Shown here: positions 1,169-33,290 of the stretch, piece after piece
How the letters are laid out: every line of letters begins with the position of its first letter
Position numbering within the stretch: the stretch's first letter is position 1
Assembly: GCA_030141605.1 (NCBI GenBank)
Contig: JAQGDQ010000180.1
Coordinates: forward strand, 62,001-126,000
Direction of reading: 5' to 3'
Length of the DNA stretch: 64,000 nucleotides
Origin: Tubiluchus corallicola
Lineage: Eukaryota > Animalia > Priapulida
Translations under genes and position numbers: made by a program
The notes under the pieces: generated by a model
Database searches by the model: none
The model's input: only the letters and a program-made list of their open reading frames with translations
What the model was told of the DNA's origin: nothing

Positions 1169-1303
1169 TTATAATTCATCCTTTTCTTTACTTGAAGCCA
1201 TTTTTAGCAGGTGATTCCTCATTGCTTCAACTGTCAGTTTGCCAAAGTAGGTTTCAACCTTTTTGCCATCCCGGAATATCATTGCAGTAGGGTGAAAGCT
1301 AAT
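1169..1303 (-). CDS. TXNDC5: TXNDC5-like exon 19 (Trx6 end, KDEL, stop)
   Basis: tag|[44 protein letters not shown]. Confidence 0.92.
   Translation of the reverse strand: MSFHPTAMIFRDGKKVETYFGKLTVEAMRNHLLKMASSKEKDEL

Positions 1304-33290: not shown

What the first reader, a model, noticed from the sequence alone, without database searches (positions are those of the whole stretch)
1169..33290. Six-thioredoxin-domain ERp46/TXNDC5: a double-length ER oxidoreductase
Seen: 19 exons splice in frame to a 799-aa protein with signal peptide, six consecutive a-type Trx domains joined by acidic linkers, no b/b' domains and KDEL; there are no internal stops. Established: TXNDC5/ERp46 and Drosophila pretaporter have three CGHC domains acting as independent fast oxidases recharged by peroxiredoxin-4. 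Inference: this lineage doubled the domain number, giving an architecture I do not recognise among described PDI-family members, possibly for a heavy load of disulfide-rich secreted proteins.
Basis: partly seen in the sequence, partly recalled or inferred. Interest (0 to 1): 0.88.

Follow-up and report, generated by a model that had tools for sequence, protein, structure and literature searches.

The report
Six-domain ERp46 protein-folding enzyme gene
This animal gene has 19 exons that would splice into an ER disulfide-forming enzyme (ERp46/TXNDC5) with six thioredoxin domains instead of the usual three; similarly lengthened versions occur in several other animal groups, and its last domain has likely lost normal oxidase activity.

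Summary
Observation confirmed: 19 minus-strand exons and 18 of 18 GT-AG introns give a 799-aa frame with one hydrophobic N-terminus, six Trx domains and KDEL. It is a TXNDC5/ERp46 orthologue. Three corrections. (1) It is not a doubling: the order is Trx1-(Trx2)x4-Trx3, made by copying the phase-0 three-exon Trx2 cassette. The copies are old, with saturated synonymous sites. (2) Only four sites are CGHC; domain 5 is CDHC, and domain 6 is K-CEVC without Trp, His or the conserved Arg. (3) It is not unique: 13 other six-domain proteins (4 clusters, 2 lineages) and 4-, 5- and 8-domain forms (Mytilus, Parasteatoda, Priapulus, Styela, Mactra) exist. Extra domains mostly cluster by lineage, and the last domain lacks the CGHC His in 4 of 6 lineages with five or more domains. 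Ten paper searches listed no description of this. Splicing and activity are untested: no RNA holder was listed. Verdict: a real, apparently undescribed but recurrent variant of a known enzyme.

The parts
33148..33290 (-). Exon 1: ATG, predicted signal peptide, start of D1 (Trx1 type, HFVMFFAP); phase-2 intron inside the W codon before CGHC
32722..32812 (-). Exon 2: D1 active site CGHC
31929..31987 (-). Exon 3: D1 CX6C pair and cis-Pro loop
28293..28404 (-). Exon 4: end of D1 with the conserved Arg (YKGKRDL)
25130..27697 (-). D2 cassette (Trx2 type, WCGHC): exons 5-7 at 27697-27476, 26028-25942, 25237-25130, all phase 0; 417 nt
21221..23664 (-). D3 cassette (Trx2 type, WCGHC): exons 8-10 at 23664-23488, 22368-22282, 21376-21221, all phase 0; 420 nt
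12747..19093 (-). D4 cassette (Trx2 type, WCGHC): exons 11-13 at 19093-18917, 16086-16000, 12935-12747, all phase 0; 453 nt; carries the longest linker (47 aa)
8004..11934 (-). D5 cassette (diverged Trx2 type, WCDHC; His, cis-Pro, Arg and CX6C kept): exons 14-16 at 11934-11755, 9042-8956, 8093-8004, all phase 0; 357 nt
   Evidence: (inside the starred Trx2 clade, 98/97)
6394..6476 (-). Exon 17: start of D6 (Trx3 type, TFINF); phase-2 intron just before the CXXC, as in D1
2866..2995 (-). Exon 18: D6 active site K-CEVC (Trp and Gly-His replaced), CX6C kept
1169..1303 (-). Exon 19: end of D6 (cis-Pro kept, conserved Arg replaced by Leu), KDEL, TAA
1063..1068 (-). AATAAA about 100 nt after the stop, candidate poly(A) signal
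   Evidence: untested

Best explanation
This is likely a single gene for an ER-resident ERp46/TXNDC5 disulfide-introducing enzyme that would carry six thioredoxin domains on flexible linkers, lengthened by old internal copies of its middle domain, and whose last domain is likely no longer a normal oxidase. Shown: the exon chain, open frame, motifs, KDEL and the domain order Trx1-Trx2-Trx2-Trx2-Trx2-Trx3. Inferred origin: the Trx2 domain sits on three phase-0 exons, so tandem copies keep the frame; three such duplications happened long ago and were kept under purifying selection. Inferred mechanism, by transfer from mammalian ERp46: peroxiredoxin-4 oxidises each domain separately, and each oxidised CXXC hands its disulfide rapidly and promiscuously to nascent secretory proteins, with PDI proofreading. 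D1-D4 keep every feature checked and would work this way. D5 (CDHC) likely still does, with a shifted redox potential. D6 keeps its fold, CXXC and CX6C but has lost Trp, His and Arg, so it is likely a slow or non-oxidising domain. The net effect would be four or five oxidase sites per chain instead of three.
For: Gene model: 18 of 18 GT-AG introns, no internal stop. Only one [KHRQSA][DENQ]EL-stop on the minus strand below 33400 and one signal-peptide exon. Family: human TXNDC5 is the top PDB sequence match, and position signatures match human Trx1, Trx2 and Trx3 (HFVMFF / HFIKFF..LLW / TFIKFY). Position-specific HMM scores (T1/T2/T3): D1 156/112/115, D2-D4 best to T2 (151-157), D5 91/102/90. 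D5 falls in the starred Trx2 clade (98/97) and D6 outside it among Trx3 domains. Age: D2-D5 are 36-59% identical, pS 0.80-0.92 against pN 0.24-0.45, and cassette similarity is confined to exons and their edges. Six-domain frames lie on 2.7-4.3 kb contigs of other organisms, consistent with spliced mRNA. The AlphaFold model of one of them (P0003, a stand-in) has six folded Trx domains, low-confidence linkers and pTM 0.26, and matches ERp46 Trx2 (3wgx) at TM 0.95 and rmsd 0.7. Independent action and separate Prx4 recognition of each domain: PMC3744794 section 7 and PMC11049379 passages.
Against: No activity was measured, and the mechanism is transferred from mammals. Each of the four middle cassettes is a multiple of 3 nt, so shorter isoforms are possible. 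D6 is not cleanly Trx3 by HMM score (63/82/79); its assignment rests on intron phase, sequence signatures and tree position. The functional meaning of the lost His, Trp and Arg is recalled knowledge, not from a call (one search found no supporting paper). D2-D5 form one clade in only 4% of bootstrap trees (d3-d5: 89/81), although monophyly is not rejected (p-AU 0.425). The folded structure is a homologue, not this protein.
Confidence: 0.75

Rival explanations
1. Cassette gene: the four Trx2 cassettes are used alternatively, so the main products have three to five domains and the six-domain chain is minor or absent.
For: All four cassettes are phase 0 and multiples of 3 nt (417, 420, 453, 357). 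NCBI isoform models of Branchiostoma PDIA5-like proteins differ in domain number (P0124 11, P0126 11, P0127 10). The Styela five-domain model is labelled isoform X1.
Against: Symmetric phase is also what allowed the duplication, so it is no sign of skipping. Full six-domain frames lie on transcript-sized contigs in 13 proteins of 4 clusters. All 18 splice sites are canonical.
Confidence: 0.15
2. D6, and perhaps D5, has been repurposed as a reductase, isomerase or substrate-holding (b'-like) domain, making the chain an oxidase with its own proofreader.
For: D6 keeps both CXXC cysteines, the cis-Pro and CX6C despite 25-31% identity to the other domains. The last domain lacks the CGHC His in 6 of 8 sequence groups with five or more domains, or 4 of 6 lineages once the related P0001, Mactra and P0013 are merged. 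In three-domain proteins 152 of 155 keep it.
Against: Relaxed selection on a redundant domain predicts the same changes. The replacements differ between lineages (CEVC, CGFC, CKAC, or no cysteines). The three-domain set was ranked on a WCGHC profile, which inflates the 152 of 155. Priapulus and Styela keep WCGHC.
Confidence: 0.2
3. One reading: the extra domains were selected to cope with a heavy load of disulfide-rich secreted proteins.
For: The duplicates were kept under purifying selection, and expansions recur in marine invertebrates and a spider.
Against: Nothing here links domain number to secretory load. The Conus magus orthologue retrieved is 387 aa, the ordinary three-domain length (P0026), although cone-snail venom glands are a heavy disulfide load (recalled). 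Domains that act independently can be added near-neutrally.
Confidence: 0.3
4. Two adjacent genes, or an assembly duplication, mimic one long gene.
For: No whole genome was available to check the assembly.
Against: There is one signal-peptide exon and one ER-retention exon. The order is T1-T2x4-T3, not two T1-T2-T3 units. No intron exceeds 3524 bp. The copies have saturated synonymous sites and non-homologous introns.
Confidence: 0.02

Closest known systems
TXNDC5/ERp46/PDIA15 (human; PDB 8eky_M, 3wgd, 3wge, 3wgx, 3uvt) and Drosophila pretaporter
   Same: Signal peptide, only a-type Trx domains on long linkers, a CX6C pair in every domain, KDEL, and the Trx1/Trx2/Trx3 position signatures (PMC3500226, PMC9868663 Table 1 and PMC11350429 passages).
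   Different: Six domains instead of three (Trx2 four times); 19 exons against 10 in human (PMC11049379 passage); D5 CDHC; D6 KCEVC without the conserved Arg.
Expanded TXNDC5 database entries: Priapulus caudatus (5 domains, P0004), Styela clava (5, P0008), Mactra antiquata (5, P0012), Mytilus spp. (4), Parasteatoda (4), Dimorphilus (4), and unnamed P0002/P0123/P0125 and P0003 (6), P0001 (8)
   Same: Trx1 first, extra internal domains (mostly Trx2 copies), ER-retention end and often a diverged last domain; P0003 has the same layout with GCKAC last; P0001 and P0244 have CEHC/CDHC in extra domains.
   Different: Only 36-41% identical to the window protein. Their extra domains mostly cluster within their own lineage. 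Position-by-position orthology with the six-domain forms is rejected (p-AU 0.029 for d3, 4.6e-8 for d4). Parasteatoda copied Trx1 and Mytilus Trx3.
ERdj5/DNAJC10
   Same: Six Trx-fold domains, about 790 aa, KDEL; best whole-chain Foldseek E-value for the stand-in model.
   Different: ERdj5 has two non-catalytic Trx domains and four sites CSHC/CPPC/CHPC/CGPC (PMC12781119 Table 1), a J domain (PMC13095759 passage), and acts as a reductase. Whole-chain TM 0.17, 18-19% identity.
PDIA5/PDIR and its invertebrate expansions
   Same: Tandem a-type domains; database proteins with 6-12 domains in Branchiostoma, corals, molluscs and Styela show the same kind of expansion.
   Different: PDIA5 starts with a b-type domain, which the window protein lacks; its domains score lower on the TXNDC5 position HMMs (about 105 at most, against 151-157 for D1-D4).

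Membership tests
TXNDC5/ERp46 | N-terminal signal peptide | tested here: met
   Single hydrophobic segment at residues ~1-20, hydropathy peak 2.78; hydropathy only, no SignalP
TXNDC5/ERp46 | C-terminal ER retention signal | tested here: met
   KDEL-stop
TXNDC5/ERp46 | Only a-type Trx domains, no b/b' domains | tested here: met
   Six CXXC domains with 10-47 aa linkers fill the chain
TXNDC5/ERp46 | Sequence orthology to Trx1, Trx2 and Trx3 | tested here: met
   Top PDB match human TXNDC5; D1 in the Trx1 clade, D4/D5 in the starred Trx2 clade, D6 among Trx3 domains without a starred branch
TXNDC5/ERp46 | CX6C pair in each domain | tested here: met
   6 of 6 domains; human pattern in PMC9868663 Table 1
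TXNDC5/ERp46 (canonical three-domain form) | Exactly three domains, all CGHC | tested here: not met
   Six domains; 4 of 6 are CGHC. Hence filed as an expanded orthologue, a variant and not a canonical member
TXNDC5/ERp46 | Domains act independently in an open arrangement | tested here: inconclusive
   Only a stand-in homologue (P0003) was folded: six folded domains, linkers pLDDT<50, pTM 0.26
TXNDC5/ERp46 | Oxidised by Prx4; rapid promiscuous disulfide introduction | not testable with these tools
   Transferred from PMC3744794
ERdj5/DNAJC10 | J domain and non-catalytic Trx domains | tested here: not met
   D1 starts right after the signal peptide; all six domains have CXXC
PDIA5/PDIR | N-terminal b-type domain before the a domains | tested here: not met
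   The first domain is a CGHC Trx1-type domain
PDI/ERp57/ERp72/P5 | b/b' domains | tested here: not met
   No inter-domain gap longer than 47 aa

The most novel reading that the evidence does not exclude
TXNDC5 behaves like an accordion in invertebrates: its exon-symmetric middle domain has been multiplied again and again, and once spare oxidase sites exist the last domain is converted into a non-oxidising reductase, isomerase or substrate-binding module. That would rebuild a PDI-like oxidase-plus-proofreader in one chain from an all-catalytic ancestor, several times independently.
Probability: 0.2. Interest if true: 0.68.

Novelty: new variant of a known kind. Interest (0 to 1): 0.42.

Why it matters
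The reviews I read present ERp46/TXNDC5 as a three-domain enzyme, and at most four redox-active CXXC domains (ERdj5) appear in the part of the human PDI table I saw. Natural 4-, 5-, 6- and 8-domain forms give a ready series for asking what domain number does for an enzyme whose domains act independently (rate per chain, avidity for the Prx4 decamer). They also let one watch catalytic a-domains drift towards non-catalytic ones, the route usually assumed for the b domains of PDI. The gene itself is one instance of that recurrent pattern, not a unique invention.

Tried and rejected
Transcript evidence: no RNA holder was listed. The one run offered, X1 (RNA is a guess, share of words 0.00), laid only short 85-99% pieces on non-coding repeats and bridged no exon junction in the two stretches tested (exons 1-8; exons 18-19). 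This is uninformative; exons 9-17 were not examined. No whole genome is held, so paralogues and the assembly could not be checked. Taxon placement failed: a search with the neighbouring gene's last exon found nothing among 1723 candidates, the Atlas gave no result, and trees leave the organism unresolved (next to Priapulus at 83/79 in one of two Trx1+Trx2 trees). A metagenome scan with P0125 did not return the six-domain TXNDC5 contigs. Of 80 loci I translated 8: three had three WCGHC sites, three long ones had 6-8 CXXC sites (not classified), and two were partial. A single origin of all six-domain forms was not rejected by the clade test (p-AU 0.179); only position-by-position orthology was, and gene conversion among repeats could also produce lineage clustering. 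The grouping of degenerate last domains in trees is treated as probable long-branch attraction. Whole-gene doubling, ERdj5 and PDIA5 membership were rejected (see the membership test). A recalled role of the conserved Arg in Prx4 binding found no supporting paper and is not used as evidence. Three look-ups of earlier scan findings gave nothing relevant. No complex prediction was run.

Full report
OBSERVATION. A six-frame motif scan and self-tblastn located Trx exons on the minus strand. From the sequence I fixed 19 exons between 33290 and 1169. All 18 introns are GT-AG (335-3524 bp), and the 2400-nt frame gives 799 aa ending KDEL with no internal stop. Pfam Thioredoxin matched 11 of 18 exon translations scanned. 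The only strongly hydrophobic segment is the N-terminus, and the 25 cysteines are one in that segment, six CXXC and six CX6C pairs.

ONE GENE, NOT AN ARTEFACT. There is one signal-peptide exon and one ER-retention stop. D2-D5 are 36-59% identical. Their synonymous sites are saturated (pS 0.80-0.92) while pN is 0.24-0.45, and blastn among the cassettes hits only exons and their edges. The copies are therefore old and selected. Splicing is not shown: no RNA holder was listed, and the one run offered was uninformative.

IDENTITY AND ORIGIN. A profile of four active-site exons matches human TXNDC5 best among PDB sequences (E 1.5e-60; next family 7e-28). Position-specific HMMs built from 139 three-domain hits call D1 Trx1 and D2-D5 Trx2, while D6 is ambiguous (63/82/79). 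In a 40-row IQ-TREE tree D4 and D5 lie in the starred Trx2 clade (98/97) and D6 lies outside it among Trx3 domains. D6 also has the TF-x-x-F and LxFRxG signatures of human Trx3. Exon structure agrees: D2-D5 are each three phase-0 exons with an 87-nt middle exon, whereas D1 and D6 have a phase-2 intron just before the CXXC. The gene is Trx1-(Trx2)x4-Trx3: three extra copies of one cassette, not a doubling.

HOW COMMON. Two word-indexed searches (120 listed of 2838 and 120 of 7803), a cluster look-up and a full HMMER scan of 1.84 billion representatives (150 listed of 20621) gave 383 proteins. With the window protein, 195 of 384 passed a TXNDC5-type filter (first domain Trx1-like, gaps at most 60 aa): 155 have three domains, 19 four, 4 five, 14 six (the window plus 13) and 3 eight. 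These counts are not frequencies: hits were ranked by summed score, and cluster members are near-copies. P0016 looks like a gene-model read-through and P0239 like a fragment; both are among the 19. The 13 six-domain proteins fall in 4 clusters and 2 lineages, all unnamed, on contigs of 2.7-4.3 kb that look like spliced transcripts (inferred from length). Named expanded forms are Priapulus, Styela and Mactra (5) and Mytilus, Parasteatoda and Dimorphilus (4). None exceeds 41% identity to the window protein. PDIA5-like proteins show still larger expansions (up to 12 domains).

INDEPENDENT OR SHARED. In a 57-row Trx2 tree, the extra domains of P0003, Styela, P0013, Dimorphilus, P0150 and the P0002/P0123 pair form starred lineage-specific clades. 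Those of P0001 and Priapulus do not, and the window's d3-d5 group at 89/81 with d2 unresolved. Position-by-position orthology among six-domain forms is rejected (p-AU 0.029 and 4.6e-8), but one clade of all their Trx2 copies is not (0.179). Parasteatoda copied Trx1 and Mytilus Trx3 (FastTree), and three-domain relatives surround the expanded taxa, so repeated gains are likely; gene conversion could inflate the clustering. Against a private origin: holding the window's and Priapulus's middle domains together gave a tree 3.98 log units better than the free search (p-AU 0.571), D6's best hit is Priapulus d5 (44%), and one of two concatenated trees pairs the two at 83/79. The expansion may thus be partly shared with priapulids; the organism was not identified.

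DIVERGED DOMAINS. D1-D4 keep Trp-CGHC, cis-Pro, the conserved Arg and CX6C. D5 differs only by Gly to Asp among these features. D6 has Lys for Trp, EV for GH and Leu for Arg. Among proteins with five or more domains the last domain lacks the His in 6 of 8 sequence groups, or 4 of 6 lineages after merging the related P0001, Mactra and P0013 (98/97 in one tree). In three-domain hits 152 of 155 keep the His and 147 of 155 the Arg, a comparison biased by the WCGHC-based ranking. That these residues tune oxidase activity is recalled knowledge.

MECHANISM. Human ERp46's domains are joined by long loops and act independently (PMC11049379, passages). Prx4, a decamer, oxidises each domain separately, and ERp46 introduces disulfides rapidly but promiscuously while PDI proofreads (PMC3744794, passages and sections 7-8). 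A stand-in six-domain homologue (P0003, 38% identical) folds as six confident Trx domains on low-confidence linkers (mean pLDDT 78, pTM 0.26), with a domain matching the ERp46 Trx2-Prx4 peptide structure 3wgx at rmsd 0.7. I therefore infer an ERp46-type oxidase with four, probably five, working sites and a last domain that is slow or does something else (0.75). Rivals are cassette splicing (0.15), a repurposed D6 (0.2, compatible with the rest), selection for secretory load (0.3, untested) and two genes or an artefact (0.02).

LITERATURE. Ten full-text searches (listings and abstract starts seen) listed no paper on a TXNDC5 with more than three domains, the most direct, returned 0. I read passages of PMC3500226, PMC11049379, PMC12781119 (with part of Table 1), PMC13095759, PMC9868663 (with part of Table 1) and PMC11350429; those that describe ERp46 or pretaporter give three domains, and PMC13095759 only names it. 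The library lacks most subscription papers and I opened no supplements, so a mention elsewhere is possible. Several expanded forms already sit in NCBI as 'TXNDC5-like'.

VERDICT. A real, old and probably functional gene, and a new variant of a known enzyme. It is less singular than proposed, because the same kind of expansion recurs in other animals, and more interesting as one member of an apparently undescribed series in which the last domain tends to lose its oxidase motif. Interest 0.42.

Noticed in passing
window 33741-39461 (+): exons 33741-33812, 35639-35699, 36871-36996, 37808-37867, 39447-39461: A five-exon gene with GT-AG introns encoding 110 aa ending EESDDDMGFGLFD starts 450 bp from the TXNDC5 ATG, head to head; it looks like 60S acidic ribosomal protein P1 (label recalled, not from a call). 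A shared bidirectional promoter is possible.
   Followed up: partly
window 22001-22292 (-): A 29-bp tandem repeat (10 copies) overlaps the donor of exon 9, so the donor motif is repeated ten times at 29-nt spacing (12 matches in the window against 0.43 expected). Only the first, and every third after it, would keep the frame.
   Followed up: partly
window 53428-53741 (-): An Ala/Tyr/Pro-rich terminal exon ending QLQERMQ-stop behind a good acceptor; it resembles the C-terminus of RBM24/RBM38 (recalled). A homology search found nothing, and upstream exons were not traced.
   Followed up: partly
P0121-P0169 and loci L002, L010, L016: PDIA5/PDIR-like proteins with 6-12 Trx domains in Branchiostoma, corals, molluscs, Owenia, Styela and unnamed contigs: a larger parallel expansion, with isoforms differing in domain number.
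   Followed up: partly
P0001, P0243, P0244: An unnamed eight-domain TXNDC5 whose extra domains carry CEHC/CDHC, the same Gly-to-acid change as window D5, and whose last domain has no CXXC.
   Followed up: partly
P0007 (Sphaeroforma arctica), P0011 (Linnemannia zychae): Eight-CGHC proteins with HDEL/RDEL outside animals; they did not pass the TXNDC5 filter.
   Followed up: no
window introns and flanks, e.g. 4611-5558, 10589-11440, 13940-14519, 20643-21202, 39621-40426, 59680-60526: Many unrelated minisatellites (units 25-104 bp) and microsatellites; 30 rows at score 100 or more.
   Followed up: no
window about 23040-23430 and 30550-30970: A dispersed repeat occurs in opposite orientations in introns 8 and 3, probably a small transposon.
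   Followed up: no
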